A stretch of DNA of 64,000 bases from Escherichia phage OSYSP. Location: the sequence record MF402939. One strand, written 5' to 3'. Position 1 is the stretch's first letter. Every line of letters begins with the position of its first letter. This document shows positions 1,352-38,084 of this stretch, in pieces. The position numbers and the translations under genes were made by a program. The notes below the pieces were generated by a model. It searched no databases and had not been told where the DNA came from. It worked only from the letters and a program-made list of their open reading frames with translations.

Positions 1352-1381
1352 TTGGTTTCCCTTTCATTAATTTATATAAAT

Positions 1382-1410
1382 ATTATAACAAGAAATAAGA
1401 GAGAAGGCAA
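1382..1410 (-). promoter_or_regulatory. sigma70-type early promoter (TTGCCT-17-TATAAT)
   Basis: Read on minus strand; AT-rich upstream region; member of the repeated promoter family in this window. Confidence 0.6.
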
Positions 1411-2820: not shown

Positions 2821-3003
2821 TTATAAACCAGCGGAAGCCTCATTTAAAGCATCAACAATAGCCTGTTGTTGAGTCCATCCTCTACCAGTAGAATTAACGT
2901 GTGGAAGATATACTTCCCAATAACCGTCTTCTAGTAAGGTTATTTGTGCACTAAACTCTGTGCCATCAGTTAGTGTAACCTTCACAGTTTTCGTTAAAGA
3001 CAT
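2821..3003 (-). CDS. hypothetical protein (60 aa)
   Basis: ORF track only; weak SD. Confidence 0.4.
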   Translation of the reverse strand: MSLTKTVKVTLTDGTEFSAQITLLEDGYWEVYLPHVNSTGRGWTQQQAIVDALNEASAGL

Positions 3004-3019
3004 ATATTACCCTATAAGT

Positions 3020-3109
3020 TGGCAGAAGATAATGGAGTCGAACCATCACCGTATCACTACAGCGGGCTGGTTTTCAAGACCAGTTACGTACCACTACGTC
3101 CTATCTTCT
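3020..3109 (-). tRNA. tRNA-Ser (anticodon TGA), type II
   Basis: Acceptor AGAAGAT/ATCTTCT, anticodon arm CTGGT-CTTGAAA-ACCAG, long variable arm, CCA encoded. Confidence 0.6.
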
Positions 3110-3122
3110 AGTATTTATTATA

Positions 3123-3470
3123 CTAATAGTCACTCGTACTAGTGAAGTTTTCTACTTTTCCACAGATTTTACAAGTCCTACGATGATAATAGGTAATTTT
3201 TACTTTAGACCAGCCATCGTGATCATTACCTAGGTTTTCTGTTACTCCCCAAGTATGAGAACACTCATTTTCAATTTGCTTAGTAAGAGCGTTATAGCGA
3301 GTATAAAACTCCTCCTGAGCAATAGCAAATTCTTTCTGTAGTTTATCACGAGCAATAATAGCACGTTCCAGATATGTTAAATCAGGCATTCCAGCTTTTT
3401 CAGCTGCATCTATAATCTTATCTTCATCTAAAGATGCTAAAAACTCTAGAGCTTTATCTTTTGCTAGCAT
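3123..3470 (-). CDS. hypothetical protein (115 aa) with C-terminal zinc-ribbon-like motif
   Basis: ORF track; GAGGT SD; C-terminal C..H...CKICG. Confidence 0.6.
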   Translation of the reverse strand: MLAKDKALEFLASLDEDKIIDAAEKAGMPDLTYLERAIIARDKLQKEFAIAQEEFYTRYNALTKQIENECSHTWGVTENLGNDHDGWSKVKITYYHRRTCKICGKVENFTSTSDY

Positions 3471-3489
3471 TATTATTACCTCAATTGTT

Positions 3490-3580
3490 TGGCGGAAGAG
3501 GAGAGATTTGAACTCTCAAGCCGTTTTACCAGTCAGCCACTTTCCAAGCGGTTTTCGTCGCCAATTCGATTTGCTCTTCC
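3490..3580 (-). tRNA. tRNA-Ser (anticodon GGA), type II
   Basis: Acceptor GGAAGAG/CTCTTCC, T-arm GAGAG-TTCAAAT-CTCTC, anticodon loop TTGGAAA with 4-bp stem, long variable arm, CCA encoded. Confidence 0.5.
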
Positions 3581-3692
3581 AATAATAAGATGATGCCTCT
3601 ATCACACCAGGCAGTTACGCCTCGCTGGGATTCGAACCCATTAAAACAGCTCAACCGAGATAGTAGGTTTAATTTACTCTGACCATCAAATT

Positions 3693-3769
3693 TGGTGCGT
3701 GACAAGGGATTCGAACCCTCAAAACCCGACTTCTAAGGACGGTATGTATGCCAATTCCATCAATCACGC
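3693..3769 (-). tRNA. tRNA, anticodon TAG (Leu CUA reader?) with short variable arm
   Basis: Acceptor GCGTGAT/GTCACGC, anticodon arm CCGTC-CTTAGAA-GTCGG, T-arm GAGGG-TTCGAAT-CCCTT, discriminator A, CCA encoded; 77 nt, not the type II length expected for Leu. Confidence 0.45.
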
Positions 3770-3774: not shown

Positions 3775-3853
3775 TGGTGGAGGATAACGAATTCGAATCG
3801 TTCTGATGTCCTCGGTGCAAGCGAGGTGTCCACCCCTAGCAGACCCATCCCCC
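3775..3853 (-). tRNA. tRNA-Ala (anticodon TGC)
   Basis: Acceptor GGGGGAT/ATCCTCC with G3-U70 pair (Ala identity), anticodon arm CCTCG-CTTGCAC-CGAGG, T-arm AACGA-TTCGAAT-TCGTT, CCA encoded. Confidence 0.65.
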
Positions 3854-4092
3854 AAATTCTTTAGTTTACTAAGGCTATTAGCTCGGCGTAACTACAGCAC
3901 CTTCGCTTCGAGCGGAAGGAACCGCGTCATCTCGCAAACCCGATACACTATTCAGTTGCCGTTGAATCTAGTGGACTAATCTAGAACTTCTCCCGAATCG
4001 TAGGGATCGTGCTTTTTGGCAGCCAGTCCTAGGTCGAGCTAATACCTTAGTGAACTATGATGGGGATTTCTCCCCTATCAATTAATATAAAT

Positions 4093-4121
4093 ATTATAAC
4101 AAGAAATTAAGCATTAAGCAA
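4093..4121 (-). promoter_or_regulatory. sigma70-type promoter (TTGCTT-17-TATAAT) driving leftward transcription into ORF-free region 3854-4092
   Basis: Consensus hexamers with 17-nt spacer on minus strand; overlaps stop of CDS 4114-4473. Confidence 0.6.
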
Positions 4122-5464: not shown

Positions 5465-5468
5465 AATA

Positions 5469-5627
5469 TTATTTCTTTAACCACAGCAAAGATAAGCCCA
5501 GCATACTAAAACCGCTAACTAATCCGATACATTTTTCTTCTATAGTAAGAGTATCTAGATTAAATGCTGTTATAGCTATTGGCATACACCATAATGCCAT
5601 AAAAACTTGAGCTATCTTGTGTTTCAT
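5469..5627 (-). CDS. small hydrophobic peptide (52 aa, likely membrane)
   Basis: Not in ORF track; ATG with AAGGA SD immediately downstream of promoter 5660-5688; translation MKHKIAQVFMALWCMPIAITAF... is hydrophobic. Confidence 0.4.
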   Translation of the reverse strand: MKHKIAQVFMALWCMPIAITAFNLDTLTIEEKCIGLVSGFSMLGLSLLWLKK

Positions 5628-5688: not shown

Positions 5689-5999
5689 ATGAATTTTTAA
5701 TAAATTTACTTATTGTGTAGGCCACCTGGAGGCTATGAACCCCACGGCTGACAAAGAAGTTTGCGAGACCTCTCTTAAATGCCAGAATAGACCCGCCTAT
5801 CTATCGGAACCTACTCAATAAGTAAACTTTCGTTTACTTACGCCCCGTTAGAGGGACTTTAGCGACTAGAACCGGCCGGAAACTTTATCGCCTTGTTTAT
5901 TAAGAAGTCCGTTCTCTAGGAAGCAGAAATCTAAATTTGGTGGAGTTTGGGAGACTACGTGTTACTTCCTCTGTCCGAAGTAGGACAGTGCTTAACCGT

Positions 6000-6191
6000 T
6001 TAGCTGAACCCCTTTAAATATTTATACGTTTTATCTAACAACTCTTGTTTAGAGATTATACCATCACGATATTCAGTAATAAAATTATCTATGTTGGAGT
6101 CCTTTGATACAACGTTATCAGATAGCTCTGTGAATTTATTTGCTAAAAGATCTAATTCTTTGTAATTCACAAAACCTCCAGAATATGTCAT
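6000..6191 (-). CDS. hypothetical protein (63 aa)
   Basis: ORF track; no clear SD. Confidence 0.35.
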   Translation of the reverse strand: MTYSGGFVNYKELDLLANKFTELSDNVVSKDSNIDNFITEYRDGIISKQELLDKTYKYLKGFS

Positions 6192-6805: not shown

Positions 6806-6882
6806 TGGCGCGACCGATGGGATTCGAACCCACATTCTCTCCCGTGACAGGGGAGTACCATTACCAAGCCAGCCCCGGTCGC
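6806..6882 (-). tRNA. tRNA-Asp (anticodon GTC)
   Basis: Acceptor GCGACCG/CGGTCGC, anticodon arm CTCCC-CTGTCAC-GGGAG, T-arm GTGGG-TTCGAAT-CCCAT, discriminator G, CCA encoded. Confidence 0.7.
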
Positions 6883-6891
6883 ATAATTCAT

Positions 6892-7077
6892 TTACTCAGC
6901 TTTGAGTTTTTCAATAGCTGCATTAAGTTCCTTAAGAAACTCTTTTCGTACATTAAGACGATTAAGACTTACTAGTATATCATGTTTAAGTTCTTCGATG
7001 TATTTCTTCTCAACTTCAATATTGTTGATAGTGCTATCACGATGAACTTCTAGCTGTGCAATTACATTCTTGGACAT
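6892..7077 (-). CDS. hypothetical protein (61 aa, predicted coiled coil)
   Basis: ORF track; GAGGA SD. Confidence 0.5.
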   Translation of the reverse strand: MSKNVIAQLEVHRDSTINNIEVEKKYIEELKHDILVSLNRLNVRKEFLKELNAAIEKLKAE

Positions 7078-8326: not shown

Positions 8327-8414
8327 TGGTGGGCGTTAATGGAGTCGAACCACTCGAGTCGCAATGACCAGGGATTTACAATCCCCTCCGCTACCACTTA
8401 CGGAATAAACGCCC
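8327..8414 (-). tRNA. tRNA-Tyr (anticodon GTA), type II
   Basis: Acceptor GGGCGTT/AACGCCC, anticodon arm GGGGA-TTGTAAA-TCCCT, long variable arm, T-arm TGG-TTCGACT-CCA, CCA encoded. Confidence 0.7.
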
Positions 8415-9873: not shown

Positions 9874-9951
9874 TGGTGGCTCCCCGAGGATTCGAACCTA
9901 CGTACCTTCCGGTTATGAGCCGGGTGCTCATACCATATGAGCTTGAGAACC
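9874..9951 (-). tRNA. tRNA, anticodon CAT, initiator-like anticodon arm
   Basis: Acceptor GGTTCTC/GGGAGCC, anticodon arm CCGG-CTCATAA-CCGG followed by GAAGG as in initiator tRNA; T-stem imperfect; CCA encoded. Confidence 0.45.
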
Positions 9952-12595: not shown

Positions 12596-13543
12596 TTACT
12601 TGTTACGCATATCCATGATCATTTGACCATCATAGCCAGTGCCAACTACAGTCTGAGGTACACCACCTTGATATTTCTGAGCACGAATCATCTCAACTTC
12701 CAGTTGTTTCCAACGAATCATCTCAGGAGTAATGGTACGTTGCAGTGCGGCGTTAGCTTCAGCTTCTTTCTTAGCTGCGTACAGTTTAGCATCTGCGTCA
12801 CGTTCATTAGCAATAGCTTGGTTATTGCGAGCTTCACGATCTGCTTCTGCTTGTTTAACTTTTTGCTGTGCTTCCTGTTCAACGCGGGCAAGTTCAGCTT
12901 TCGCAGCGTTAACTTGCTCTTCACGAACTTTGGTATTCTGTACCTGTTCCATGATTACCGGTGGCAAAGTAATATCTTGAAGAAACACCTGCTTAACTGT
13001 GTAACCATATGGGCGTGCATACTCTTCAACTTCCTGTTGAATTGCAGTTTGCAATTGAGCCTGAATTTTAGCATCAAACAAATCTTGTGCTTTAGGTACA
13101 GACTTACCAAACTCACAAATAGTAGATAGTAATTTTTCAGTTACATATTTGTCTAACGCTTGATCCTGAGTACCTGCATTAATACGGTTAATCGGTGCCT
13201 TAGAACCATCAAACTGCAACATAACAGTCAGATCAACAGTGGATTTAAACTTATCCTGACTAGGAACCTGAAGTTTATCTAATTTTACAGCAATATCTTT
13301 TGTACTAAAAGTATCGAAAGATGCAAACGGGTTTACAATATGGAAACCAGGTAATACTGGATTAGGGTCTACTTTACCCAGGAATGTTTGAGTTTTAACC
13401 GTACCATCAGAAACAATAGTATATGAATTAAAAGCTAGGATTAAACCTGCTAAACCAACTACAGCACCAATACCCCAACGTTTAATAGTGCGAATTACTT
13501 TTTGCTCAGAAGTCAGTTCTTTCATATTTTTAGTATTAAACAT
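12596..13543 (-). CDS. SPFH/band-7 (HflK/HflC-like) membrane protein
   Basis: 315 aa; N-terminal hydrophobic helix (IGAVVGLAGLILAF), then SPFH-like core and long Ala/Glu/Gln-rich coiled coil; AAGGA SD. Confidence 0.6.
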   Translation of the reverse strand: MFNTKNMKELTSEQKVIRTIKRWGIGAVVGLAGLILAFNSYTIVSDGTVKTQTFLGKVDPNPVLPGFHIVNPFASFDTFSTKDIAVKLDKLQVPSQDKFKSTVDLTVMLQFDGSKAPINRINAGTQDQALDKYVTEKLLSTICEFGKSVPKAQDLFDAKIQAQLQTAIQQEVEEYARPYGYTVKQVFLQDITLPPVIMEQVQNTKVREEQVNAAKAELARVEQEAQQKVKQAEADREARNNQAIANERDADAKLYAAKKEAEANAALQRTITPEMIRWKQLEVEMIRAQKYQGGVPQTVVGTGYDGQMIMDMRNK

Positions 13544-13580
13544 ATATTTCCTTTGTTTTAGTTACAGTTAATAAAATTGA

Positions 13581-13652
13581 CCGAGGTGACAGGATTCGAA
13601 CCTGCATAAAGGAATTTAGAAGACTCCTGCCTCTCCCTTAGACTACACCCCG
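13581..13652 (-). tRNA. tRNA-Arg (anticodon TCT), CCA not encoded
   Basis: Acceptor CGGGGTG/CACCTCG, anticodon arm GGAGT-CTTCTAA-ATTCC, T-arm GCAGG-TTCGAAT-CCTGT. Confidence 0.55.
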
Positions 13653-14152
13653 TTTAAGTATTTTTAAGAACTCTCGTAAAAACTCTTAAAAATACAGACG
13701 ATACCGGGAGAGTCATAAGTCTCACTCATTAAGTATTTCAAGACAAAATACAGTAACGTCTATTATTTTCCAGTTTAAGTCAGGGTGACTTAGTGGTTAT
13801 GTCCTGCGGTATATTGAGGACTCGGTTAGGCTTGGGGTCATGACTTCCCGCCTTTTGCTGCTACTCAACAGGAGTTATCGCGAATTACCTGTGCTATTGT
13901 GCACCATTAGTGACATCTCTCATGTCAGCATTTCCCACTTTGTGGATAGCTTGAAAAACTACTCCGATATGGAGAAAGAACTTCACTATCCTAGAATACC
14001 TTCTAAAGTTCTTCTTTAGCCTGGACATAGTTAAATCGTAATAAAACTATTCAGCAGACTGGTTGGTTAGTCTGGAACCAACTACCGCGTGGTTTAGGCA
14101 GTGCGCAACTAACCTCGGAAGCTTTTACGTTAAAAGCATCAGTTATCCAGTT

Positions 14153-14230
14153 CTTACCGACCGTAGGATTCGAACCTACATCTTCCACCAGTTACGGCTT
14201 GATAATACCAATTATACTAGGACGGCAGTG
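14153..14230 (-). tRNA. tRNA-like element, non-canonical (no foldable anticodon stem)
   Basis: T-arm GTAGG-TTCGAAT-CCTAC, D-loop-like AATTGGTA, acceptor GCCGTCC/GGTCGGT with one mismatch; no anticodon arm can be formed. Confidence 0.3.
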
Positions 14231-29172: not shown

Positions 29173-29200
29173 AGATTTATAAATTTGAGGGGAGAAAGAT

Positions 29201-29482
29201 ATGAGCGAATTGCTTCCGAAAGTAGATGTTTCTCATCTTGGAGAGCCTAGTGAAGAACGTAAGGCTCTTGATTGGTTGGGTGGATTTGATTATCGTCGTG
29301 TTGTTGCAACATGGAATGATAAGAAAGTTAAGAAGTTTCGGGTACATTATGTAGGTAAAGACAAGTGGCTCTGGATTGATTATGAAGAATCGAAGGGGTC
29401 TACTAAGGCTGTGAAAATTTATTGTATGTATGGGTATTATTATGCTCACTGTGACAAGAATGAATTTACAGTACAGAACTAA
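29201..29482 (+). CDS. hypothetical protein (93 aa)
   Basis: ORF track; GAGGGGAG SD. Confidence 0.6.
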   Translation: MSELLPKVDVSHLGEPSEERKALDWLGGFDYRRVVATWNDKKVKKFRVHYVGKDKWLWIDYEESKGSTKAVKIYCMYGYYYAHCDKNEFTVQN

Positions 29483-29491
29483 GGAACAAGA

Positions 29492-29698
29492 ATGAAAAAC
29501 GTAAAACACCTTAAATATCGCTTAATTTACAACGGACGTATGGAAACAGAAGATCTGGCCCAATTAGCTATTAATTCTAATGAGGTTACAGTGCGTGCAC
29601 TGGCAATTGAAAAGTTGCGTGCTTCTTATGAAAGTCGTATTATGGAATTAGAGGAGAAACTTTATGGCATTCTCGAAGCCGATGCTACCCGGCAGTGA
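29492..29698 (+). CDS. hypothetical protein (68 aa)
   Basis: ORF track; AAGGA SD. Confidence 0.5.
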   Translation: MKNVKHLKYRLIYNGRMETEDLAQLAINSNEVTVRALAIEKLRASYESRIMELEEKLYGILEADATRQ

Positions 29699-29885
29699 TT
29701 TAAACACCGCTTTGGAAAACGCACTAATGCAGCACTGGGAAACTGGTTATAAGGATGGTGTTGAATCCTGCGCTACTATGCTAGAAGTTATTGCTAGTAC
29801 CTTAGTGGAGAAAGGTAATAAAGAATTGGCTGAGCTATTAGACAGTATTGGGCAAAACTTTAGAGAACAGGTGAAAAATGCGTAG
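29664..29885 (+). CDS. hypothetical protein (73 aa)
   Basis: ORF track; GAGGAG SD; overlaps previous ORF by 35 nt. Confidence 0.45.
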   Translation: MAFSKPMLPGSDLNTALENALMQHWETGYKDGVESCATMLEVIASTLVEKGNKELAELLDSIGQNFREQVKNA

Positions 29886-30702
29886 ATTAATTATTATCAG
29901 TGGTGCAGGTTTGAGTGTTGAAAGCGGTGTACGAGCCTTCCGTACTGATACTGCTAGTGGTAAAGCATTGTGGGATGATTATGATTTAGAAGAGGTATGT
30001 AGTATTCATGCCTTTCGTGGTAACTTTTATCATAAAACCCATATGTTTTACAACAAGCGACGTGAAGAGCTAAAAACTGTTGAGCCTAACCTTGCGCATC
30101 TTCGTATTGGTGAGTGGTATAAGAAATATCCGGGTCAAGTAGTAAATTTGACTACTAACGTTGATGACCTTATTGAGCGTGCTGGTGTTCCCCATAATGA
30201 TATTCTCCACATTCATGGATACTTAAAGGAGGTTGTTGTAGCTGATAGCTACAATAGTAGTAATAAACGAATTATTGATGTTGGGTATAACTCTATTGAT
30301 CCGGATGATTATAAATGGGTTAAACCTAATGTAATCTTCTTTGGGGAGCATGCTCCAGCGTACGCAGAAATGTACAATATTTTTGATGGTATTACCAGTC
30401 AAGATATGGTCGTTGTAGTTGGTTGCTCTAACCAAGTAATTAACTTCTACTGGGAATTATTCCCTGTTCTTAACCGTACTGCTGCGAAACTTATGGTGGT
30501 TAACTACTACGATAGTGCCCTAGCGGCAGAACCAGGTTATCAAGGTATGACTCGTAGTGAGATGTACCAGTTGGAAGAACGCGGTATCCCCTACTGGAGT
30601 AAAGGTGCGGTAGATGCTTTCAGTGATCCTGGTTTTATTGCTCGTGTAGAAGCTCATCTAGAGGGTAGACCTTATATGCCGGGAAAACAGATATGTCCAT
30701 AG
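29878..30702 (+). CDS. Sir2 (sirtuin)-like NAD-binding protein
   Basis: 274 aa; N-terminal IISGAGLSVESGVRAFR matches the sirtuin GAGxS..SGIP.FR NAD-binding motif; TTNVDDL and HIHG motifs; no zinc-binding Cys pairs seen. Confidence 0.6.
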   Translation: MRRLIIISGAGLSVESGVRAFRTDTASGKALWDDYDLEEVCSIHAFRGNFYHKTHMFYNKRREELKTVEPNLAHLRIGEWYKKYPGQVVNLTTNVDDLIERAGVPHNDILHIHGYLKEVVVADSYNSSNKRIIDVGYNSIDPDDYKWVKPNVIFFGEHAPAYAEMYNIFDGITSQDMVVVVGCSNQVINFYWELFPVLNRTAAKLMVVNYYDSALAAEPGYQGMTRSEMYQLEERGIPYWSKGAVDAFSDPGFIARVEAHLEGRPYMPGKQICP

Positions 30703-30875
30703 TTAAATCTGTGTATACACATCCAGATGATATATTTGTATGGGCGGATGGTAGTTGGTGCTATCGATGTGAGTTATGGGAAATGGACTATAAATCTGAT
30801 GACTATGGTGTCATATATGTTGATACGGTTGAGTATGATACGTTCTTAGAAAGGGACAAAAATGGAAATAAGTAA
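30693..30875 (+). CDS. hypothetical protein (60 aa)
   Basis: ORF track; overlaps both neighbours by a few nt. Confidence 0.4.
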   Translation: MSIVKSVYTHPDDIFVWADGSWCYRCELWEMDYKSDDYGVIYVDTVEYDTFLERDKNGNK

Positions 30876-31368
30876 TACTCCAATTATTTTTCTAGATATT
30901 GATGGGGTGCTCAACTCGAGCATCTCCCATCACCATGCACCTGATGATGAAAAGATTTTCTTTGGAAGTGACTGGGTTTTTAAACCGCTTCTCAAGGCTT
31001 TTCAGGACTTTATTCGTCCTTCCCCAATAATGATTGTTGGGGTATCTTCATGGTTCTCTGTCAGGAATGAGATGGAGAACGTTCAGATTATGACCGGATT
31101 AGATCTTATCGATCGTTTTCTTGGTACAACGGATTTTACTGGTGGTGGGCTATCTAGGGGTAATTCTGTTCTTCGCTTCGTTGAAAAACACAAGCTCAAA
31201 CATTGGTGTGTGCTGGATGATGCTGGTGCTATGATGTATCAGTATCCAACGGTTATAGTCAATGGTAGAACTGGAATAAATCTTCAAGATTTAAGAGCTG
31301 TTAGCTATATGTTAGAATTTAGTCCAGATCTTGAAATGTGTAAAGCCCTACAACAATTTAAGGTGTAA
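30862..31368 (+). CDS. HAD-superfamily phosphatase-like protein (possible deoxynucleotide monophosphatase)
   Basis: 168 aa; N-terminal FLDIDGVL motif (DxDx(T/V) nucleophile) typical of HAD hydrolases. Confidence 0.55.
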   Translation: MEISNTPIIFLDIDGVLNSSISHHHAPDDEKIFFGSDWVFKPLLKAFQDFIRPSPIMIVGVSSWFSVRNEMENVQIMTGLDLIDRFLGTTDFTGGGLSRGNSVLRFVEKHKLKHWCVLDDAGAMMYQYPTVIVNGRTGINLQDLRAVSYMLEFSPDLEMCKALQQFKV

Positions 31369-31370
31369 AT

Positions 31371-31799
31371 ATGTTCAATAATGTATTCTCTAAAGAGGCT
31401 AACCCGATATTGGTTAATTTTTGGCGTACTCTTCCAGCCAACCTGTACAATGAGGCTATTAATGCTCTGAAAATATGGTGTGAGAATAATGAAATCTCCT
31501 TTGCTTTTAAAGGCGAGATTGAGGAGGCTCCCTGTATTGGTTTAATTGTGCAGGTGGAGGATGGTCTTGAAGAGATTGTCGGCTGGAAAGAGTTGGATGA
31601 AATGGGCTTGGTTTTTGCGTTAAACTATAAGCTATTTATGCCCAATAAACACCGTATTGTTGTTAACTATAAAACCAATGAATCTCCTGGTTTTCAAGTT
31701 AATGAACGGTATGGTTGGTCTTACTCACCAGAAGAAGTAAATGATGGTATCCAAAAACTTCGTCGTTTTGGTTATCAAATTCCGGGTTTAACCGCCTAA
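31371..31799 (+). CDS. hypothetical protein, paralog A (142 aa)
   Basis: ORF track; AAGGTG SD; shares PCIG...W.ELD.MGL..ALN..LF.P motif with next ORF. Confidence 0.6.
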   Translation: MFNNVFSKEANPILVNFWRTLPANLYNEAINALKIWCENNEISFAFKGEIEEAPCIGLIVQVEDGLEEIVGWKELDEMGLVFALNYKLFMPNKHRIVVNYKTNESPGFQVNERYGWSYSPEEVNDGIQKLRRFGYQIPGLTA

Positions 31800-31808
31800 G
31801 GGGGCACA

Positions 31809-32207
31809 ATGGAACAAGTATATTGGCGTCAGATTGATCCTAGTTTGGTGAAGCGTGCGGAGAAGCTGCTACAACGTTGGTTGGGGGTAAGACAAGCCTC
31901 CTTCACTTTTCCGGAGCAGCAAATAGACGATCCCTGTATTGGTGTTTTCCTATCAGGCTACGCTAGGGAATGGGAATGGGAATTGGATTGGAATGAGTTG
32001 TCTGCTATGGGTTTAATTGTTGCCCTAAATTTCTCTTTGTTCCATCCACGTGGTTTGGCTATATGTCGTATGCCTGATGATGGTTGTTCACCCCATCTTT
32101 TACAGGTGGAAGATGATATTTGGGAGTACACTCCAGATATTCTCAAAGAAGCTAAAGAACAGTTAAACCATGTTGGGATCTATGTTCCAGGCTTGAATGA
32201 TGAATGA
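31809..32207 (+). CDS. hypothetical protein, paralog B (132 aa)
   Basis: ORF track; AAGGGGG SD; similar to preceding ORF. Confidence 0.6.
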   Translation: MEQVYWRQIDPSLVKRAEKLLQRWLGVRQASFTFPEQQIDDPCIGVFLSGYAREWEWELDWNELSAMGLIVALNFSLFHPRGLAICRMPDDGCSPHLLQVEDDIWEYTPDILKEAKEQLNHVGIYVPGLNDE

Positions 32208-32231
32208 TTTTTATTAGCTGAACTCTGATTA

Positions 32232-32256
32232 CCGAGTCATTTTGGCTCGGTTTTAT
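32232..32256 (+). terminator. possible intrinsic terminator
   Basis: CCGAG-loop-CTCGG hairpin followed by TTTTAT. Confidence 0.35.
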
Positions 32257-32298
32257 CCGTACTCAAGACCAATGATAGCACCATCCGGAAAATTTTAC

Positions 32299-32327
32299 TT
32301 GCAGGATGCCCAAAATCTTGATATAAT
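32299..32327 (+). promoter_or_regulatory. sigma70 promoter (TTGCAG-17-TATAAT, extended -10 TGATATAAT)
   Basis: Hexamers read directly; followed by about 500 nt of ORF-free leader. Confidence 0.6.
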
Positions 32328-32826
32328 ATTTATATTGAATTGAGAGACATTAGTAAAAATTGATTTTGCTAATTTTTCTTGTTTACAATCCGCGATACGG
32401 AACAGTTAGGCTGCCCCATTAAGGGTTGTTTTAACTGTTACGTGTTAGTTTTTAAACAAATAATTAATAGAATACTTAGCGATCTGCGTCCCGTAGGAAC
32501 CCTGGTAAGGCCTCGAAGCAACCTAGATAGAGGTGGTTGTGAAGTGAGACGGGAGGAGTGAAAAACTCCGAGACGTGATTCTGTAAGTTATATTGCATCT
32601 AGTATGAGCTAGTATATGAAGCATTAGGTGAGCAAATCTGGCTTAGCGGCCATCCTCAAGGATTTGTGCGGTATAGCAAAGCAGCAGCGCAGCGTGAAAG
32701 TGGAAGTTGCCACCCCACTTCAGTATTTGCGATTAATTTGTTGAGAAATTGACAGTAACAGTTGTTCTATTCTTTCTGAATAGTCCTAAAGAAAACTTAT
32801 TTCATTTCCAATACAGGAGTATTGTT

Positions 32827-35616
32827 GTGTTTTCAATCCTACAAGGTCATGCAGGATTTCATCGCGATTTAGCCACAGGCAATTGGCGAGAAGTTAAGGC
32901 AGAAGATTATCTTTTTGCTAAAAGATTTTCCTCAAAGCATCCTGAAGGTAAACCAGCTTCAATGCCCTTCAAGTTTGATGTAATTGACGAAGTTGATCCT
33001 CAAACCCTAGTAGAAATGCTTCCTCTTATGAGACGTTTAACGTCTGATCCTCATATCGTTGCGGTACGAGGTAGATGTCTTGCACCTAAAAATAATGTGC
33101 GACGTAAGAAGGGCAACTTTAATGTATCTAATCCAAGTCATATAATCGCAATGGATGTGGATGGTATTGTAGATACAGGAGGTTGTAACAAGTTTGATCT
33201 TGTTGGCATGGCGCGTCATATTATTAGGATGTTGAATAGTATTAGTGAGGATATGTTTCCTCTTGATGCAGGGTTTATTGCTCATGCATCGTCTTCGGCT
33301 GGACTAAAACCAGGTATCCGAATGCATTTAATACTAGAATCTAATGTTAAAGTTACACAGGGTCAGATCAAGTTCTTATTTACATCTATCAACGAAAGTA
33401 GTAGACAAAAGTATGGTTTTGATATTGCCGACTTAGCTTATTACTCTTCAGTACAGCTCCACTATTTTGCAGATCCTTTATTTATTGATGGTATAGTTGA
33501 TCCGTTTAAAGCGGAGGATGCTTCACGTCTGGTATTTGTTAAGGGTTCTAAAGTAAATTTACCTAATAATCTAGTTGACTATGAAACAACTAGAGGGGAG
33601 TTTAAAGAGGAATTCTACTCTTTACTCGATCAAATTAAAGGTAAAAAAGCTGCCTCTGATAAAGTAGAAGAAACCATCAGCGAGTTAGAGGAAGCTGAGG
33701 ATGGTGTATATCTACGTATTATTCCTAAACTCTATCACCGAGCACTAGAGGATGGTGTAGATTTTGGTTGGCTAGAGAAGGAGATCCGCCCAGCTTTATC
33801 TGAGTATATTGCAACTAAAGATAATAGTCGTAATATTCAGGATTATTTTAATAACGGTCGAAAACAGGCTCTGAAAGCATTTGTTAATAATTCTAAACGT
33901 GATATACCTGATGTTTTAAAAGGTATTCCACTTAAAAAGCTAGAAACTAACTCTCTAGAAACAGATAATTTCTTGAAATTAAACACTGTGCCACCAGAAG
34001 GTTATATGACTTTTGTAAAAGCAAGTCTAGGTACAGGTAAAACCACGGCGGTTGTGCGTTGGTTAGATTCAGGAGTTATTAAAGGTAATTTCTTAGCAAT
34101 TACCAATACTAGGGCACTGGTGTCTTCAAATGCCAAGAAATTTAGTGCAGGACAATATGATAAGTCTGTAGATATGCTTAATTTTAAGCGTGGTGCTATT
34201 GACCGTATGTCCACAACTATCCACTCTTTACATAAGTTTAAGAGTTTTATTGGTCAAATTGATGCAATCTTTATCGATGAATGTGATGCAGTAATGAATG
34301 ACCTATTATTCGCCCCGGTTGTTAAGCAACGTCGTGAGTGTATTCAGGTTCTTCGTGATATTCTTGCAACTGCAAAAATCATTATACTATCCGATGGTGA
34401 TATTAGTGCGGAAACAATTGAAGCATATGGTTCTTTGATTGAGTTCGATAAACCAGTTGCATTCTATAATCATCACCGTAAGATGCTGTCAAAAGCCCAC
34501 GCTTATGAGTTTCCAGATGAATCCAGTATTTGGGTTGCACTTCAGACTTCTCTAGAGATGGGGGAGAAATCTATTCTAGTATCTGATTGTGGCCCTGATG
34601 AGCTGAATGAGAAGGGTATGGCACTGCGTCGTAACACGGGTGCGTTAGTTAAGGAAATCCATTCAAACTCTACCTCAGATGTGGATATTCGACGTATTCT
34701 GGATTATACAACTAATGAGCTAATTGATCAACAAATTGATTGCTTATTATGTAGTCCATCCGTAACGAGCGGTGTTGACTTCAACTATTTTGATAACGTA
34801 TTCGTTATTACTAGAACCAGTAATCAAGCGCCAAACATGCGTTTTCAAGCAATCAGGCGCGACCGTGGTGCTCAGAATATCTATTATTTTATTGATAAAT
34901 CCACTAGTGGGTTCTCTGCAGGTTCTGAACAATATAATATTGATGAAGGTTGGCTGGAGTTAGCACAGCAATTATACGCACGTCGTAGAGAGCTGGAATC
35001 TAGAAACTATACTAGTACCTTACGGTATTACTTGCTTGATCAGGGTGCAACTATTGATATTTTCAGCGAAAGCTGGGGAACTATTGAAGGTGCTGGTAAA
35101 GAATATACAGAAGAGCGAATCAAAGCTATTCTGCATTCAACTCCAGATTATTGTGCCCCACGTCATGCAGATGCATATGAAGCTAAACTACTTCTTGTTC
35201 GCTATTATCATCTTGAGTCTATTAAAGATGTAACAGTTGAGCATGTTGAACAATATATCAAAGATAAACCGAATGATCGAGCTGCATTCTTCCATAAGAT
35301 GCACGAGATGTTCTGGGAAGATATTAAAAAGTGTTCAAATGTGACCATTAAACCATTCATAGAGGCTCTGAAAGGTAAGAAGAAAGACTTCTTCCTTAAA
35401 ACAGGTCAGAGTGCTAACCCAAAATATGCTAGAATGTATCTTGGTATGATGGGTATTGGTAAGGATATGAACACTGAAAATATCGTAGACTGGTATAGAA
35501 CCTATTGTAAAATCGAGTGTATGCCAATTCCATATAAGTTCATGACTGACGAGGAAAAACATATGCACGATGAAGCAATGTCAGAGCTAGGTGCTAGAAA
35601 TGACAGTGAAGAATAA
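32827..35616 (+). CDS. large DExD-box NTPase/helicase-like protein (putative replication origin-binding type)
   Basis: Walker A LGTGKTT, Walker B IFIDECD, downstream CSPSVTSGVDF; start tentatively GTG at 32827 after AGGAG (track start is ATG 32749). Confidence 0.7.
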   Translation: MFSILQGHAGFHRDLATGNWREVKAEDYLFAKRFSSKHPEGKPASMPFKFDVIDEVDPQTLVEMLPLMRRLTSDPHIVAVRGRCLAPKNNVRRKKGNFNVSNPSHIIAMDVDGIVDTGGCNKFDLVGMARHIIRMLNSISEDMFPLDAGFIAHASSSAGLKPGIRMHLILESNVKVTQGQIKFLFTSINESSRQKYGFDIADLAYYSSVQLHYFADPLFIDGIVDPFKAEDASRLVFVKGSKVNLPNNLVDYETTRGEFKEEFYSLLDQIKGKKAASDKVEETISELEEAEDGVYLRIIPKLYHRALEDGVDFGWLEKEIRPALSEYIATKDNSRNIQDYFNNGRKQALKAFVNNSKRDIPDVLKGIPLKKLETNSLETDNFLKLNTVPPEGYMTFVKASLGTGKTTAVVRWLDSGVIKGNFLAITNTRALVSSNAKKFSAGQYDKSVDMLNFKRGAIDRMSTTIHSLHKFKSFIGQIDAIFIDECDAVMNDLLFAPVVKQRRECIQVLRDILATAKIIILSDGDISAETIEAYGSLIEFDKPVAFYNHHRKMLSKAHAYEFPDESSIWVALQTSLEMGEKSILVSDCGPDELNEKGMALRRNTGALVKEIHSNSTSDVDIRRILDYTTNELIDQQIDCLLCSPSVTSGVDFNYFDNVFVITRTSNQAPNMRFQAIRRDRGAQNIYYFIDKSTSGFSAGSEQYNIDEGWLELAQQLYARRRELESRNYTSTLRYYLLDQGATIDIFSESWGTIEGAGKEYTEERIKAILHSTPDYCAPRHADAYEAKLLLVRYYHLESIKDVTVEHVEQYIKDKPNDRAAFFHKMHEMFWEDIKKCSNVTIKPFIEALKGKKKDFFLKTGQSANPKYARMYLGMMGIGKDMNTENIVDWYRTYCKIECMPIPYKFMTDEEKHMHDEAMSELGARNDSEE

Positions 35617-35833
35617 AAAATGGGAAACAAGGAAGTTTCCAGTAAAAGAACGTAAAGTTCCTGTTTATGATACTTCGGAAAAGCTATGTAGGGTGGTACC
35701 GCACAGATTAGCTGGCATCCCTAACATATCCGAATGGTTACTTAAACAACGGAGGACTAACGTATCTCTTCGCATAGGGTTTGAGTTAGATAAAGTATAT
35801 GCTGAACTTTCTTCTTTGCTCAAAGAATCATAA
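35600..35833 (+). CDS. hypothetical basic protein (about 77 aa)
   Basis: Track ORF 35591-35833 trimmed to ATG with AGGTG SD; overlaps end of helicase gene. Confidence 0.4.
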   Translation: MTVKNKKWETRKFPVKERKVPVYDTSEKLCRVVPHRLAGIPNISEWLLKQRRTNVSLRIGFELDKVYAELSSLLKES

Positions 35834-35842
35834 AAAATTTAT

Positions 35843-35871
35843 TTGCTTTCAGGAAAATTTTTCTGTATAAT
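35843..35871 (+). promoter_or_regulatory. sigma70 promoter (TTGCTT-17-TATAAT) with ATAAATTTGAGAGAGGAG box
   Basis: Consensus hexamers. Confidence 0.65.
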
Positions 35872-35902
35872 AGATTCATAAATTTGAGAGAGGAGTTTAA
35901 AT

Positions 35903-36607
35903 ATGGCTGGTTCTCACAGAAAGAAACATATCCATGAAATCCCGGATGAAGTCTTTAAAAAAGTTATAGAGCATCTGGAGAACGGTGGTACTAAGAAAGC
36001 AGCATGTGAAATGCTAGGCGTATCATCCAATCCAACTATGGAAAGGATGATTGAAGAGTGGCAAGACCGCCAGATTCAAGTTGCCGAAATGAAGAAAAAG
36101 AAACGTGGTACACTCATTGAAGGTATTGAGTTGGCCAACGTTATTGAACAGTATCTATCTGGCGATTCTTTTGAAGAGATTGCCGATCGTAATTACCGCT
36201 CTGTAGCAATGGTTAAATCTGTTCTGGAACGCTATGGTGCTCTGCTTCGTTTGAATGATATTGTAGATCCATTGAGTCCTCCAATTATTCCTGACGATGC
36301 TGTGGCAGAAGAATTTGAGGTAGGTGAGCTTGTTTGGGTTCCTGGATACCAGTGTATCGGTGAAATCAAAAAAGCAATGGATAACCCTGTTGGTTGTTAC
36401 CGTGTATGGCTCTTATCAGAAGGCAAACAACAGAACGTTCATTATATGAATTATGAGCTGGCTTCTGTTAAACACCTGGAAAAGCTAGGGGTTGATGTAA
36501 AGTCTCTGGGGTACAAATGGTCCCGGGAAGAAGTTATCACACTGATTAACGAAGCTGTTAAGGCTGCCTTGAAACTTGATAAAGATAAAGGAAAACGCCG
36601 TGAGTAG
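35903..36607 (+). CDS. putative DNA-binding protein with helix-turn-helix motifs
   Basis: 234 aa; HTH-like GGTKKAACEMLGVSSNPTMERMI and a second sigma-region-4-like segment; GAGAGGAG SD. Confidence 0.6.
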   Translation: MAGSHRKKHIHEIPDEVFKKVIEHLENGGTKKAACEMLGVSSNPTMERMIEEWQDRQIQVAEMKKKKRGTLIEGIELANVIEQYLSGDSFEEIADRNYRSVAMVKSVLERYGALLRLNDIVDPLSPPIIPDDAVAEEFEVGELVWVPGYQCIGEIKKAMDNPVGCYRVWLLSEGKQQNVHYMNYELASVKHLEKLGVDVKSLGYKWSREEVITLINEAVKAALKLDKDKGKRRE

Positions 36608-36851
36608 ACTAACTGATTTACTTAAAGATGGGGAAGTAAAAACGCTATATCGTAGAAGCTGGGATAACGATAATTACGGCTTAGTGTTACTAACTTTAGA
36701 TGCTGACTCGGATGTAGCTACTCAACATACCTGGGTAGCCGGTAACTATCCATATAGCGAGGCTGTTTCATTAACAGTATGCGAAGCTATTGCAGATGAT
36801 TGGGAGGTTGCCAGCATCGATGATATGCGTGCTGTTGGCCTGCTGGAGTAA
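36600..36851 (+). CDS. hypothetical protein (about 83 aa)
   Basis: Track ORF 36576-36851 trimmed to GTG after AAAGGA SD; overlaps stop of upstream gene. Confidence 0.45.
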   Translation: MSRLTDLLKDGEVKTLYRRSWDNDNYGLVLLTLDADSDVATQHTWVAGNYPYSEAVSLTVCEAIADDWEVASIDDMRAVGLLE

Positions 36852-36954
36852 CTACTTAAAAATTTCAGTTGCTTAATCCTACAATTCTTGATATAATATT
36901 CTCATAGTTTGAAAGAACTATTCTGTTTAATTCTTAATTAAGGAAATATAAAAT

Positions 36955-37365
36955 ATGACTACTCCAACTCAGTGGACTGATGAACTGTTCGAAAAAATGT
37001 CTTCCGAATACGTTGCTCGTATGGAGCAATTCCCAGAGGATGAACGTCCGGGTGTTAGCATGGAAATTGTTAGCGAAATTGCCCAGGAAAATGGTGTAAC
37101 TCCGAACGGTTTTCGTATGAAGCTGACTAAAGCAGGTTTGTATATCAAGAAAGCTGCTGGTTCTACTTCTAAATCTAGCGCATCTACTGGAGAAAAAGCT
37201 TCCGGTGGTTCTCGTACCTCCAAAGCCCAAGCTCATGCTGATCTTCGTTCAGCATTCTCTGATGCTGGCTTAGCGCCAGATTTTCTGGATGATGCAATTA
37301 TCGACAAACTGACCGGTAAAGCGGCTGCTCATCTGGCAGAAGCAATCCGAGCTATCACTAAGTAA
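36955..37365 (+). CDS. hypothetical protein (136 aa) with Ser/Thr/Ala-rich linker
   Basis: ORF track; AAGGA SD; ctg/cgt/gct-biased codons. Confidence 0.65.
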   Translation: MTTPTQWTDELFEKMSSEYVARMEQFPEDERPGVSMEIVSEIAQENGVTPNGFRMKLTKAGLYIKKAAGSTSKSSASTGEKASGGSRTSKAQAHADLRSAFSDAGLAPDFLDDAIIDKLTGKAAAHLAEAIRAITK

Positions 37366-37401
37366 TTTTAGATAAATCCACCAACAAAAGGAACTATAGC
37401 T

Positions 37402-37698
37402 ATGACTAAAGCTGAAATTATTGCACAGTGCGAAAAATTTGGTGAGTTTTATCTTCATTACGAGAAACTTCGTCAGAAAGGAACCACGTATCTTCAGGGT
37501 ACAATGGAATTTGATCCGGCCCAAGATAAATATCTGGCTGAGCGTATTAAACGCGAACGTATTCGTAAAGCGAAAGATGATGAAATCCTTGTCTTCTCTC
37601 GTACTAATGATAGCTTCCGTTTTATTCCTGTCGAGAAAGTTCGTCGTGTGACTAGCCTCCAATCAGAGTTAGATCGTGCTTCTCCAGTAGGCCGATAA
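37402..37698 (+). CDS. hypothetical protein (98 aa)
   Basis: ORF track; AAAGGA SD. Confidence 0.65.
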   Translation: MTKAEIIAQCEKFGEFYLHYEKLRQKGTTYLQGTMEFDPAQDKYLAERIKRERIRKAKDDEILVFSRTNDSFRFIPVEKVRRVTSLQSELDRASPVGR

Positions 37699-37748
37699 GA
37701 AAACAATTAGCCCCTATATGGGGCTTTTTGTGTATTTGGGATATGTAA

Positions 37749-38057
37749 ATGAGCGAACAGGTAAATCAAAACTATGAAGGACACGTTGATGACCAGTCCA
37801 TCATACTTTGGGAGAAGGAGGGGGAACAAGTAAGATTAACAGTATCTGAATTTCGTGGGAATCTATACATGGGTATTCGTTACTGGCTTCTTGATATTAA
37901 TGATGAGTGGTTTCCAACGAAATCTGGCTTCTCTTTTCCTTACACCCTAGAAACAACATCACAGCTTTTCTATGCGTTTACACAGATTCTTAGCGAATCT
38001 GAGGTTTTACATGAAGTACAGAAACGAGCTGAAGAACTCAAAGCCAAGAATGCCTAG
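37749..38057 (+). CDS. hypothetical protein (102 aa)
   Basis: ORF track; followed by terminator. Confidence 0.6.
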   Translation: MSEQVNQNYEGHVDDQSIILWEKEGEQVRLTVSEFRGNLYMGIRYWLLDINDEWFPTKSGFSFPYTLETTSQLFYAFTQILSESEVLHEVQKRAEELKAKNA

Positions 38058-38073
38058 TTCTTGGCTTTTTCTT
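38042..38073 (+). terminator. rho-independent terminator
   Basis: 9-bp stem AGCCAAGAA/TTCTTGGCT plus TTTTTCTTT. Confidence 0.65.
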
Positions 38074-38084
38074 TATAAATGTAT

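What the first reader, a model, noticed from the sequence alone, without database searches (positions are those of the whole stretch)
3854..4092. Promoter-driven, ORF-free structured region upstream of tRNA-Ala
A consensus promoter (4093-4121) fires leftward into about 240 nt with no ORF of note but several hairpins (GGGGAGAAATCCCC; CCTTCCGCTCGAAGCGAAGG) before tRNA-Ala. No canonical tRNA could be folded here, so it may encode a small RNA or an unusual tRNA-like molecule co-processed with the tRNAs.
Basis: seen in the sequence. Interest (0 to 1): 0.45.

Follow-up and report, generated by a model that had tools for sequence, protein, structure and literature searches.

The report
T5-family stable pseudoknotted RNA gene
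The promoter-driven, ORF-free stretch upstream of tRNA-Ala is the gene for a structured RNA of about 170-195 nt. A sister phage's GenBank record already annotates it as "RNA 2H, stable RNA with unknown functions". Here it turns out to be a conserved, pseudoknotted RNA family of T5-like phages whose function is still unknown.

Summary
A T5-type early promoter (TTGCTT-17-TATAAT, 4121-4093, minus strand) drives an ORF-free region that folds far better than shuffles (z = -4.2) and ends 9 nt before tRNA-Ala.

The conserved unit is window 4056-3863 (-). It is 98% identical to the misc_RNA "rna2H / RNA 2H, stable RNA with unknown functions" in GenBank AJ604531 (Salmonella phage 5). The gene is therefore already known, but it has no Rfam family and no assigned function.

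About 425 phage records carry close copies. With a covariance model I found diverged copies in six clades of Demerecviridae. Their covariation supports these elements:
- a 22-bp closing helix with an invariant bulged G
- nested helices Px, P2 and P3
- two swappable peripheral arms
- a loop-to-internal-strand pseudoknot

The annotated mature ends sit staggered in the closing helix, as an RNase III cut would leave them. In every clade the RNA heads a unit containing tRNA-Leu(UAG). Viable T5 deletion mutants lack it.

Best reading: an early, excised, stable accessory RNA. A trans-acting, protein-binding role is inferred, not shown. Interest is moderate.

The parts
4093..4121 (-). Sigma-70 early promoter: TTGCTT (4121-4116), 17-nt spacer, extended -10 TGtTATAAT (TATAAT 4098-4093). 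The predicted start is near 4086.
   Evidence: Sequence read. The promoter is conserved in homologues. The -10/downstream motif is over-represented in the window.
4058..4080 (-). Leader hairpin UGAU(A)GGGG-AGAAAU-CCCCAUCA. It abuts the RNA but is not part of the conserved element.
   Evidence: GGGG/CCCC becomes GAGG/CCUC in relatives. KKP_3711, DU_PP_V and My1 have hairpins of unrelated sequence at the same place. It is absent in Sugarland, Eos and the phage-5 type.
3863..4056 (-). The whole conserved RNA element (194 nt), homologous to RNA 2H. It is the only copy in the window.
   Evidence: Covariance model R1 scores 214.5 bits, E = 2e-68, with no other hit in the window. 425 phage records match.
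3873..4044 (-). Predicted mature RNA (172 nt; 5' UAUUAGCUCG..., 3' ...CGAGCUAAUAGCC). The ends are transferred by homology from the rna2H feature of AJ604531.
   Evidence: The transfer uses the gap-free alignment.
4035..4056 (-). P1 5' strand (AGUUCACUAAGG|UAUUAGCUCG). The bar marks the annotated 5' end.
3863..3885 (-). P1 3' strand (CGAGCUAAUA-G-CC|UUAGUAAACU). The bulged G is at 3875. The bar marks the annotated 3' end, staggered 2 bp plus the bulge from the 5' cut.
   Evidence: The bulged G and the GG/CC pairs are kept in all six clades.
4030..4034 (-). Px 5' strand (ACCUA). It pairs with 3942-3938.
   Evidence: Covariation.
3938..3942 (-). Px 3' strand (CGGGU).
4024..4029 (-). P2 5' strand (GGACUG). 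It pairs with 3978-3973 (UAGUCC).
   Evidence: 100% of cells paired and 4 of 6 pairs covary. This helix replaces the T5-only MFE helix CUAGGACU/AGUUCUAG.
3973..3978 (-). P2 3' strand (UAGUCC).
4009..4020 (-). Pseudoknot 5' strand GCCA (4020-4017), followed by the conserved A-run and GCAC (4016-4009).
3990..4008 (-). P2b, variable peripheral hairpin (GAUCCC-UACGAUUC-GGGAG). Other phages have longer, unrelated hairpins here.
3950..3967 (-). P3 hairpin (AUUCA-ACGGCAAC-UGAAU). Loop bases 3961-3958 (CGGC) form the pseudoknot with GCCA.
   Evidence: Six different stem sequences occur across clades. Pseudoknot positions 1 and 2 covary.
3886..3935 (-). P4 (GCG/CGC, 3 bp) plus the P5 arm. The arm exists as two interchangeable module types.
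3775..3853 (-). tRNA-Ala(UGC), the first downstream gene. It is followed by tRNA-Leu(UAG) at 3693-3769.

Best explanation
Shown:
- Window 4056-3863 (-) is the gene for a non-coding, highly structured RNA of the family annotated as 'RNA 2H'.
- It lies just downstream of a strong early sigma-70 promoter and is the first gene of a unit that always contains tRNA-Leu(UAG).
- Its two ends form a 22-bp helix (P1) with an invariant bulged G.
- Inside P1 are nested helices (Px, P2, P3), two replaceable peripheral arms (P2b, P5) and a pseudoknot between the P3 loop and a strand just 5' of a conserved A-run.

Inferred:
- The RNA is released from the tRNA precursor by a staggered double-strand cut in the middle of P1, most likely by host RNase III.
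- That cut would leave a 172-nt RNA with a 10-bp terminal helix and a 3' GCC overhang. It would also leave a 12-19 nt leader on the next tRNA for RNase P to remove.
- The compact pseudoknotted core then persists as a stable RNA that acts in trans, most probably by binding a host or phage protein as a decoy or modulator.
- Its benefit would be conditional, since phages that lack it grow in the laboratory.
For: Identity:
- 98% identity over 203 nt to the rna2H misc_RNA of AJ604531.

Non-coding and structured:
- No ORF.
- z = -4.2.
- Indels of 1, 7 and 22 nt among homologues.

Covariation:
- On 28 sequences, 92% of cells are paired, against 28-42% when the partners are slid.
- 30 pairs have double changes, and the covariation score is 0.339 against <=0.099.
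- On 24 distinct variants from six clades: P1 96.6%, P2 100%, Px 85% and pseudoknot 86.5% paired. None of 2000 shuffles reached any of these values.
- The P3 stem has six different sequences.

Strand:
- G.U pairs occur in P1 (positions 2 and 21) and in P2.
- R1 scores 217.6 bits on the sense strand of the phage 5 copy and 33.4 bits on the reverse strand.

Selection:
- The core is 96-100% identical between genera whose flanking ORF is about 89-90% identical. tRNA-Ala, where it is of the same type, is about 90-91% identical. Both peripheral arms are swapped.

Distribution:
- Markadamsvirinae, Sugarlandvirus and Mccorquodalevirinae.

Processing:
- The annotated ends fall after GG on the 5' strand and after the paired CC on the 3' strand. 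This is a 2-bp stagger.
- GG/CC and the bulged G are conserved in all clades, while the inner 10 bp change completely.
- A tRNA or an SD+ATG starts 2-9 nt after P1.

Dispensability:
- FFH1 carries a natural internal deletion.
- Viable T5 mutants del30661-38625 and del29191-32442 (PMC11464382) span the T5 copy at AY587007 31719-31912.
Against: - I could not read any experiment on this RNA. 'Stable RNA' and its ends rest on a GenBank annotation whose basis I could not check (searches found no paper).
- RNase III cleavage is inferred from geometry only.
- The same ends also fit RNase P plus 3' trimming of an acceptor-like helix with an RCC tail.
- Trans action and protein binding are not supported by any direct evidence.
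- The constant promoter-proximal position and the tight link to tRNA-Leu(UAG) fit a cis-acting role just as well.
- Only about six independent lineages exist. Many covarying cells therefore reflect few evolutionary events.
Confidence: 0.55

Rival explanations
1. It is a cis-acting leader of the tRNA-Leu(UAG) operon. The element would exist mainly to organise the nascent transcript. It would sequester the 5' leader of the next tRNA (or the SD of the next ORF) in P1 until cleavage, protect the 5' end, or modify the transcribing RNA polymerase as promoter-proximal antiterminator RNAs do. The accumulating RNA would then be a by-product.
For: - The element is promoter-proximal in every lineage with a recognisable promoter, 8-35 nt after the -10.
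- The order RNA, then tRNA-Ala or a small ORF, then tRNA-Leu(UAG) is kept in all six clades while the rest of the tRNA order differs.
- The next gene begins 2-9 nt after P1.
Against: - An RNase III site or a 5' stabiliser needs only a helix.
- The near-invariant pseudoknotted core is far more elaborate than that.
- It is more conserved than the tRNA it would serve.
- The locus is annotated as a stable RNA species.
Confidence: 0.25
2. It is a tRNA-like acceptor mimic. After processing, the 10-bp terminal helix plus the 3' G-CC tail would be completed to GCCA by the CCA-adding enzyme. RNase P and other proteins that recognise tRNA 3' ends would then handle it, so the RNA would act as a tRNA decoy or a charged or tagged molecule.
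For: - The bulged G followed by CC is invariant in all clades. In the annotated mature RNA it is the unpaired 3' end.
- Neighbouring T5-family stable RNAs in AJ604531 have helices formed by both ends and short 3' overhangs. RNA I and RNA3 end in CCA, and three others are annotated 'tRNA-like'.
Against: - There is no cloverleaf, T-arm or D-arm.
- ARAGORN and the Rfam tRNA and tmRNA models do not match.
- The base after GCC is U, not A.
- The conserved 12-bp leader-trailer helix would hinder RNase P.
Confidence: 0.1
3. It is a ligand-sensing riboswitch or a self-cleaving ribozyme of a new class.
For: - The architecture is a conserved junction and pseudoknot core with variable peripheral arms and conserved unpaired A-rich and GUGUA strands.
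Against: - No Rfam family matches even at E <= 10.
- There is no expression platform. No terminator follows.
- The putative cut sites lie on both strands of a regular helix, which is the pattern of a protein nuclease.
Confidence: 0.05
4. It is a DNA-level element, such as an inverted-repeat-bounded mobile or recombination module or a replication site, and the RNA fold is incidental.
For: - A 22-bp inverted repeat bounds the element.
- The upstream context switches exactly at the element's first base between two phage groups.
- The arms are exchanged as modules.
Against: - The genome window holds a single copy.
- The locus is the same in all phages.
- No target duplication is visible.
- G.U pairs are valid only on the tRNA-sense strand, and the model score is strand-asymmetric.
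- The covarying internal helices and the pseudoknot have no DNA rationale.
Confidence: 0.03
5. It is a small protein gene, as several GenBank records annotate on the opposite strand (for example CPT_Sugarland_107).
For: - Hypothetical-protein CDSs overlap the locus in Sugarland, the K7_rec phages and others.
Against: - The window has no ORF >=60 aa here.
- Homologues differ by 1-, 7- and 22-nt indels.
- Substitutions are compensatory in helices rather than codon-patterned.
Confidence: 0.01

Closest known systems
RNA 2H (gene rna2H) of Salmonella phage 5, GenBank AJ604531, 'stable RNA with unknown functions'
   Same: - The sequence is the same: 98% identity over 203 nt, and R1 scores 217.6 vs 214.5 bits.
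- The position is the same, directly upstream of tRNA-Ala and tRNA-Leu(UAG).
   Different: - The upstream context differs. The window has its own promoter and leader hairpin immediately 5' of the element.
- Phage 5 has unrelated sequence after tRNA-Lys, with an annotated promoter P13b about 116 nt upstream.
Phage T4 species 1 and species 2 RNAs (rnaC, rnaD)
   Same: - They are small stable RNAs of unknown function encoded inside a phage tRNA gene cluster.
- They are made from the same precursor as the tRNAs (annotation; PMC2330249).
- From memory, unverified here: T4 species 1 RNA is an in vitro RNase III substrate.
   Different: - There is no sequence or structure homology. Model R1 does not match the T4 cluster above noise.
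- The T4 RNAs lie at the 3' end of the cluster, not at the head of an operon.
- rnaC contains a T-arm-like GGGUUCGAAUCCC hairpin. RNA 2H has none.
RNase III processing sites of phage early transcripts (for example T7 R1.1)
   Same: - Both have a helix of about two turns, cut with a 2-nt 3' stagger, that separates adjacent genes of a polycistronic early transcript.
- This rests on established knowledge of RNase III substrates.
   Different: - Here the helix closes a 150-nt conserved pseudoknotted domain, not a simple hairpin.
- Cleavage has not been demonstrated.
Other T5-family 'stable' and 'tRNA-like' RNAs (RNA I, III, IV, X; RNA1, 2, 3) annotated in AJ604531
   Same: - They share the genomic region and the annotation class.
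- Their helices are also formed by the 5' and 3' ends.
   Different: - There is no detectable sequence similarity to RNA 2H.
- Those RNAs are shorter (73-145 nt, apart from RNA X at 785 nt).
- RNA1 and RNA2 carry T-arm-like hairpins.

Membership tests
RNA 2H family (AJ604531 misc_RNA rna2H) | Sequence and structure homology to the annotated RNA | tested here: met
   98% identity over 203 nt. Covariance model R1 scores 214.5 bits, E = 2e-68.
RNA 2H family (AJ604531 misc_RNA rna2H) | Location at the head of the tRNA-Ala / tRNA-Leu(UAG) unit on the tRNA-sense strand | tested here: met
RNA 2H family (AJ604531 misc_RNA rna2H) | Accumulates as a discrete stable RNA in infected cells | not testable with these tools
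   Only the GenBank note says so. No paper was found in the library.
tRNA | Cloverleaf recognised by ARAGORN or Rfam RF00005 | tested here: not met
   No call in 3854-4092, and none even at E <= 10.
tmRNA | tRNA-like domain plus tag ORF (ARAGORN, RF00023) | tested here: not met
   ARAGORN finds none. The only RF00023 fragments (5-11 bits) lie in neighbouring tRNA T-arms, outside the region.
Any Rfam 15 family (riboswitches, ribozymes, 6S, Y RNA/YrlA, sRNAs) | Match to a curated covariance model | tested here: not met
   No hit at the gathering threshold. No hit at E <= 10 with permissive filters in 3854-4092.
RNase III substrate | Regular double helix of about 20 bp or more | tested here: met
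   P1 has 21-22 bp with one C x A mismatch and one bulged G. It is 96.6% paired over 24 variants.
RNase III substrate | Cuts on both strands staggered by 2 bp, leaving a 3' overhang | tested here: inconclusive
   The annotated ends of RNA 2H have exactly this geometry. The experimental basis of those ends is unknown.
RNase III substrate | Cleavage depends on RNase III | not testable with these tools
   This needs an rnc mutant host or an in vitro assay.
T4 rnaC / rnaD stable RNAs | Homology to species 1 or species 2 RNA | tested here: not met
   R1 run without filters on the T4 tRNA cluster gives only noise (<=14 bits, short hairpins).
Miniature inverted-repeat mobile element | Several copies at different loci, with target-site duplication | tested here: not met
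   The window holds a single copy. The locus is the same in all phages. No duplication flanks the element.
Promoter-proximal antiterminator RNA (put-type) | Acts in cis on the transcribing polymerase to suppress termination | not testable with these tools
   Only the promoter-proximal position is shared.

The most novel reading that the evidence does not exclude
RNA 2H would be the founding member of a new class of phage-encoded, pseudoknotted effector RNAs. RNase III would excise it from a tRNA precursor and leave a tRNA-like NCC(A) 3' end. It would then act as a molecular decoy against a host RNA- or tRNA-targeting defence or an RNA-processing enzyme. This would explain why it is strictly conserved with tRNA-Leu(UAG) across Demerecviridae yet dispensable on laboratory E. 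coli.
Probability: 0.15. Interest if true: 0.75.

Novelty: already known. Interest (0 to 1): 0.4.

Why it matters
T5-like phages are a model system and are common in phage therapy and biocontrol collections. Their tRNA region has recently been shown to carry counter-defence functions: T5 tRNA-Lys neutralises PARIS (PMC11464382). The small 'stable RNAs' interspersed with these tRNAs have been annotated since at least 2004 with no function, no published structure that I could find and no Rfam family.

What this analysis adds for RNA 2H:
- The core is more conserved than the flanking protein gene and the neighbouring tRNA.
- The family extends across three Demerecviridae lineages.
- The fold is a covariation-supported pseudoknot with a likely RNase III excision site.

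These points turn an annotation footnote into a testable object. They give defined mutations, defined ends and defined deletion strains.

There is also a practical gain. Hundreds of GenBank records leave the locus unannotated or call a spurious ORF on the wrong strand, and this could be corrected.

Tried and rejected
- **Rfam**: searches at the gathering threshold and at E <= 10 found nothing in the region.
- **Single-sequence MFE helix**: the MFE and the first RNAalifold model paired CUAGGACU with AGUUCUAG. I rejected this helix because it exists only in T5-type sequences. GGACUG/UAGUCC is kept and covaries in all clades.
- **Small hairpins**: UCG..CGA and GCU..AGC were also dropped, for Px and the pseudoknot.
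- **Lower extension of P3**: CACU/AGUG is not supported, because position 85 is U opposite U in three clades (my reading). An alternative pairing GCAC:GUGU is paired everywhere but is almost invariant, so it cannot be tested.
- **Metagenome scan**: a 16-mer gave about 120 loci, of which only one was real.
- **Other database scans**: the GTDB genome scan gave one chance hit. E. coli complete genomes gave no match.
- **IMG/VR scans**: three patterns added variants but no new clade.
- **Vibrio phage pVp-1** (Ermolyevavirinae), 49 kb: no hit.
- **Cronobacter phage EspYZU14**: it has a T5-like tRNA-Ala/Leu pair but no hit.
- **Anticodon mimicry**: I considered whether the conserved CUAAGG/CCUUAG in P1 mimics the tRNA-Leu(UAG) anticodon loop. 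I dropped the idea because Sugarland, DU_PP_V and My1 have different P1 sequences with the same tRNA-Leu(UAG).
- **Other AJ604531 stable RNAs**: no similarity to RNA 2H.
- **Literature**: searches for the original description of RNA 2H found nothing in the library.

Full report
**Context**

The window is the tRNA gene region of a T5-like phage (Tequintavirus).
- It holds 23 tRNA genes on the minus strand.
- Its best DNA matches are T5-like coliphages and Salmonella phages.

**Checking the observation**

On the minus strand the sequence reads TTGCTT (4121-4116), 17 nt, TATAAT (4098-4093), with TG two bases upstream of the -10.
- The generic promoter scan missed it, because TTGCTT shares only 3 of 6 positions with TTGACA.
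- The -10 and the following bases (TATAATATTTATAT) recur five times exactly in the window. With <=2 mismatches they recur 16 times, against 2.6 expected.
- The same promoter is conserved in relatives.

The other parts of the observation also hold.
- No ORF of 60 aa or more lies in 3854-4092.
- The region folds at -80.8 kcal/mol, against -59.2 +/- 5.1 for shuffles (z = -4.2).
- ARAGORN and Rfam find no tRNA or any other family there, even at E <= 10.

**What it is**

A sensitive DNA search found the region in 425 phage records at 74-99% identity. One of them is AJ604531, the curated 'Bacteriophage 5 tRNA gene region'.
- It annotates the homologous 172 nt as gene rna2H, 'RNA 2H, stable RNA with unknown functions'.
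- Seven further 'stable' or 'tRNA-like' RNAs are annotated in the same region.
- The T5 genome record leaves the locus unannotated.
- Several Klebsiella phage records place a hypothetical protein on the opposite strand.

I could not find the original publication in the library. 'Stable' and the mature ends therefore rest on the annotation alone.

**Boundaries**

An alignment of 13 homologues shows that conservation starts exactly at AGTTCACTAAGG (4056) and ends at CCTTAGTAAACT (3863).

Upstream of that, two unrelated contexts occur.
- One has the promoter plus a leader hairpin (the window, T5 and Eps7-like phages).
- The other has sequence following tRNA-Lys (phage 5, SelmaRatti, S126 and others).

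Two internal arms are replaced wholesale by different sequences that still form hairpins. Phage FFH1 carries an internal deletion of the core.

**Finding diverged relatives**

I looked upstream of tRNA-Ala in more distant T5-like phages.
- Clearly homologous but diverged copies turned up in Klebsiella phage Sugarland and its relatives, and in 'Bacteriophage Eos'.
- A covariance model built from three clades (R1) finds a single copy in the window.
- R1 finds new copies in three more phages:
  - Enterobacter phage KKP_3711: 152 bits.
  - Pectobacterium phage DU_PP_V: 88 bits.
  - Pectobacterium phage My1: 65 bits, E = 1.5e-19.
- The family thus spans Markadamsvirinae, Sugarlandvirus and Mccorquodalevirinae.
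- It was not detected in 49 kb of Vibrio phage pVp-1, in the T4 tRNA cluster, in E. coli genomes, in GTDB genomes or in non-T5-like viral contigs.

**Structure**

The single-sequence fold was partly wrong. Comparative analysis supports the following elements.

| Element | Description | Support |
|---|---|---|
| P1 | 22-bp helix formed by the two ends. The pairs G11-C and G12-C and a bulged G next to them on the 3' strand are kept in all clades. The inner 10 bp change completely (UAUUAGCUCG, AAUUAAUCUG, UAUAACCUAG, UCUCUUAUC) yet stay paired. | |
| Px | Pairs the 5 nt after P1 (ACCUA / AUACA / ACACU / GCAGA / ACCUU) with a segment after P3. | |
| P2 | GGACUG/UAGUCC, GAGCCG/UGGCUC, GAGUCG/UGACUC, GAACCG/UGGUUC. 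| 100% paired, 4 of 6 pairs covary |
| P3 | Hairpin with six different stem sequences. | |
| Pseudoknot | Pairs the P3 loop with the tetramer 5' of a conserved A-run (GCCA:YGGC, ACCA:UGGU, AUCA:UGAU, UGCA:(C)GCA). | positions 1 and 2 covary |
| P4 | 3-bp helix GYG/CRC. | |
| P2b, P5 | Variable peripheral arms. | |

The counts are as follows.
- On 28 sequences, 92% of cells are paired, against 28-42% when the partners are slid.
- The covariation score is 0.339 against <=0.099.
- No shuffle out of 500 reaches the observed value.
- My curated table of 24 distinct variants gives the same picture, with 0 of 2000 shuffles reaching the observed pairing for each helix.

G.U pairs, and the much lower model score on the opposite strand (33 vs 218 bits), show that the fold belongs to the tRNA-sense RNA.

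One caveat applies. The variants come from about six lineages, so the number of independent substitutions is modest.

**Selection**

I compared the window with Epseptimavirus members.

| Segment | Identity |
|---|---|
| Flanking ORF | 89-90% |
| tRNA-Ala (where of the same type) | about 90-91% |
| P1 | 98-100% |
| Inner core | 96-98% |
| P2b and P5 arms | replaced |

A near-invariant core with free peripheral arms suggests an RNA whose three-dimensional core is the functional part.

**Processing (inferred)**

- The annotated RNA 2H starts right after the GG of the 5' strand of P1. It ends right after the CC that pairs with that GG.
- The two ends are thus offset by two base pairs plus the bulged G. 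A double-strand-specific RNase III cut in the middle of a two-turn helix would give this pattern.
- The outer 12 bp, the GG/CC pairs and the bulge are the conserved parts of P1.
- The next gene starts 2-9 nt after P1. It is tRNA-Ala(UGC), tRNA-Leu(UAG), or a small ORF with its SD.
- Cleavage would therefore also create a short 5' leader on the next tRNA.
- The same ends could instead arise by RNase P acting on an acceptor-like helix with an RCC tail. I keep that as a rival.

**Context and dispensability**

- In all six clades the element heads a unit containing tRNA-Leu(UAG). The tRNA follows directly, after tRNA-Ala(UGC), or after a 58-aa ORF.
- Except in the phage-5-type context, the element sits 8-35 nt downstream of a TTGCTW-17-TATAAT promoter.
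- The T5 copy lies at AY587007 31719-31912. That is inside the deletions of the viable mutants T5Mos (del 30661-38625) and T5-123 (del 29191-32442).
- In that study the PARIS-suppressing activity mapped to tRNA-Lys, and the other fragments of the deleted region had no effect (PMC11464382).
- The RNA is therefore an accessory function under laboratory conditions.

**Mechanism**

- With high confidence, this is a real structured RNA gene, already catalogued as RNA 2H.
- With moderate confidence, RNase III excises it from the early tRNA precursor at P1.
- With low confidence, it then acts in trans as a protein-binding (decoy or modulator) RNA.

The main rival is a cis-acting role for the tRNA-Leu(UAG) operon. 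Riboswitch or ribozyme, tRNA-mimic, DNA-element and coding readings are less likely, for the reasons listed with each rival.

**Comparison with known systems**

- It is the same gene as rna2H of phage 5.
- Its closest analogues are the T4 species 1 and species 2 RNAs. These are stable RNAs of unknown function made from the tRNA precursor (PMC2330249; annotation). They are not homologous.
- P1 resembles the RNase III sites of phage early transcripts.
- The element fails the tests for tRNA, tmRNA and every Rfam family.

**Verdict**

The locus is already known as an annotated stable RNA, so its novelty as a discovery is low. Its structure, its range across phage lineages and its likely maturation were not available in any source I could reach, and its function remains open. 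Interest is moderate, at 0.4.

Noticed in passing
window 3489-3580 (-): A long-arm tRNA-Ser(GGA) (GGAAGAG...CUCUUCCGCCA) that both ARAGORN and Rfam miss. AJ604531 annotates the homologue as tRNA-Ser (UCC codon). The T5 record marks it as a pseudogene.
   Followed up: partly
window 3600-3692 (-): An unannotated 90-nt spacer between tRNA-Leu and tRNA-Ser(GGA). It contains a perfect T-arm-like hairpin (UGGGUUCGAAUCCCA) but no callable tRNA, so it may be a tRNA remnant or a tRNA-like RNA.
   Followed up: no
window 3775-3853 (-): tRNA-Ala(UGC) is 79 nt long with an expanded D-arm. ARAGORN calls it, but it does not reach the Rfam tRNA gathering score. The acceptor stem keeps G3.U70. T5 itself carries a different tRNA-Ala type at this position.
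   Followed up: partly
window 9877-9951 (-) and 14155-14226 (-): Two Rfam tRNA hits (40.3 and 35.5 bits) that ARAGORN does not call. Conversely, ARAGORN's tRNA-Ser(tga) at 3020-3109 and tRNA-Tyr at 8327-8414 are not in the Rfam list.
   Followed up: no
window 1374-1387, 4085-4098 (-); 32322-32335, 38108-38121, 39283-39296 (+): Five exact copies of TATAATATTTATAT (-10 box plus initial transcribed bases). This marks a family of near-identical early promoters. The same motif precedes the RNA in Sugarland, KKP_3711 and, with one change, Eos and My1.
   Followed up: partly
L161 2258-2446 (Klebsiella phage Sugarland, CPT_Sugarland_107); L163 2254-2439: A 'hypothetical protein' CDS with an RBS is annotated on the strand opposite to the RNA 2H homologue. 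It is almost certainly a mis-annotation of the RNA gene.
   Followed up: yes
L179 17279-17363 (-) (Pectobacterium phage My1): An unannotated tRNA-Leu(UAG) lies 2 nt downstream of the RNA 2H homologue, in the gap just upstream of CDS My1_054 (ends 17263).
   Followed up: yes
L037 (AJ604531) 2980-3341, 5465-5567, 5936-6060, 6863-6935, 12898-13682: Seven further annotated 'stable' or 'tRNA-like' RNAs of unknown function (RNA I, III, IV, X; RNA1, 2, 3). Most have a helix formed by both ends. RNA I and RNA3 end in CCA, and RNA1 and RNA2 carry T-arm-like hairpins. None is in Rfam as judged by the window scan.
   Followed up: partly
L012 (phage FFH1) ~436-503: A natural deletion removes the RNA 2H core, from just after UAUUAGCUCG to the middle of P5. 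The promoter, the leader hairpin and the outer P1 strands are kept.
   Followed up: partly
L009 (Salmonella phage S126), within 411-612: A 7-nt tandem duplication (TGAATAG TGAATAG) in the 3' strand of P3 of an otherwise standard copy.
   Followed up: no
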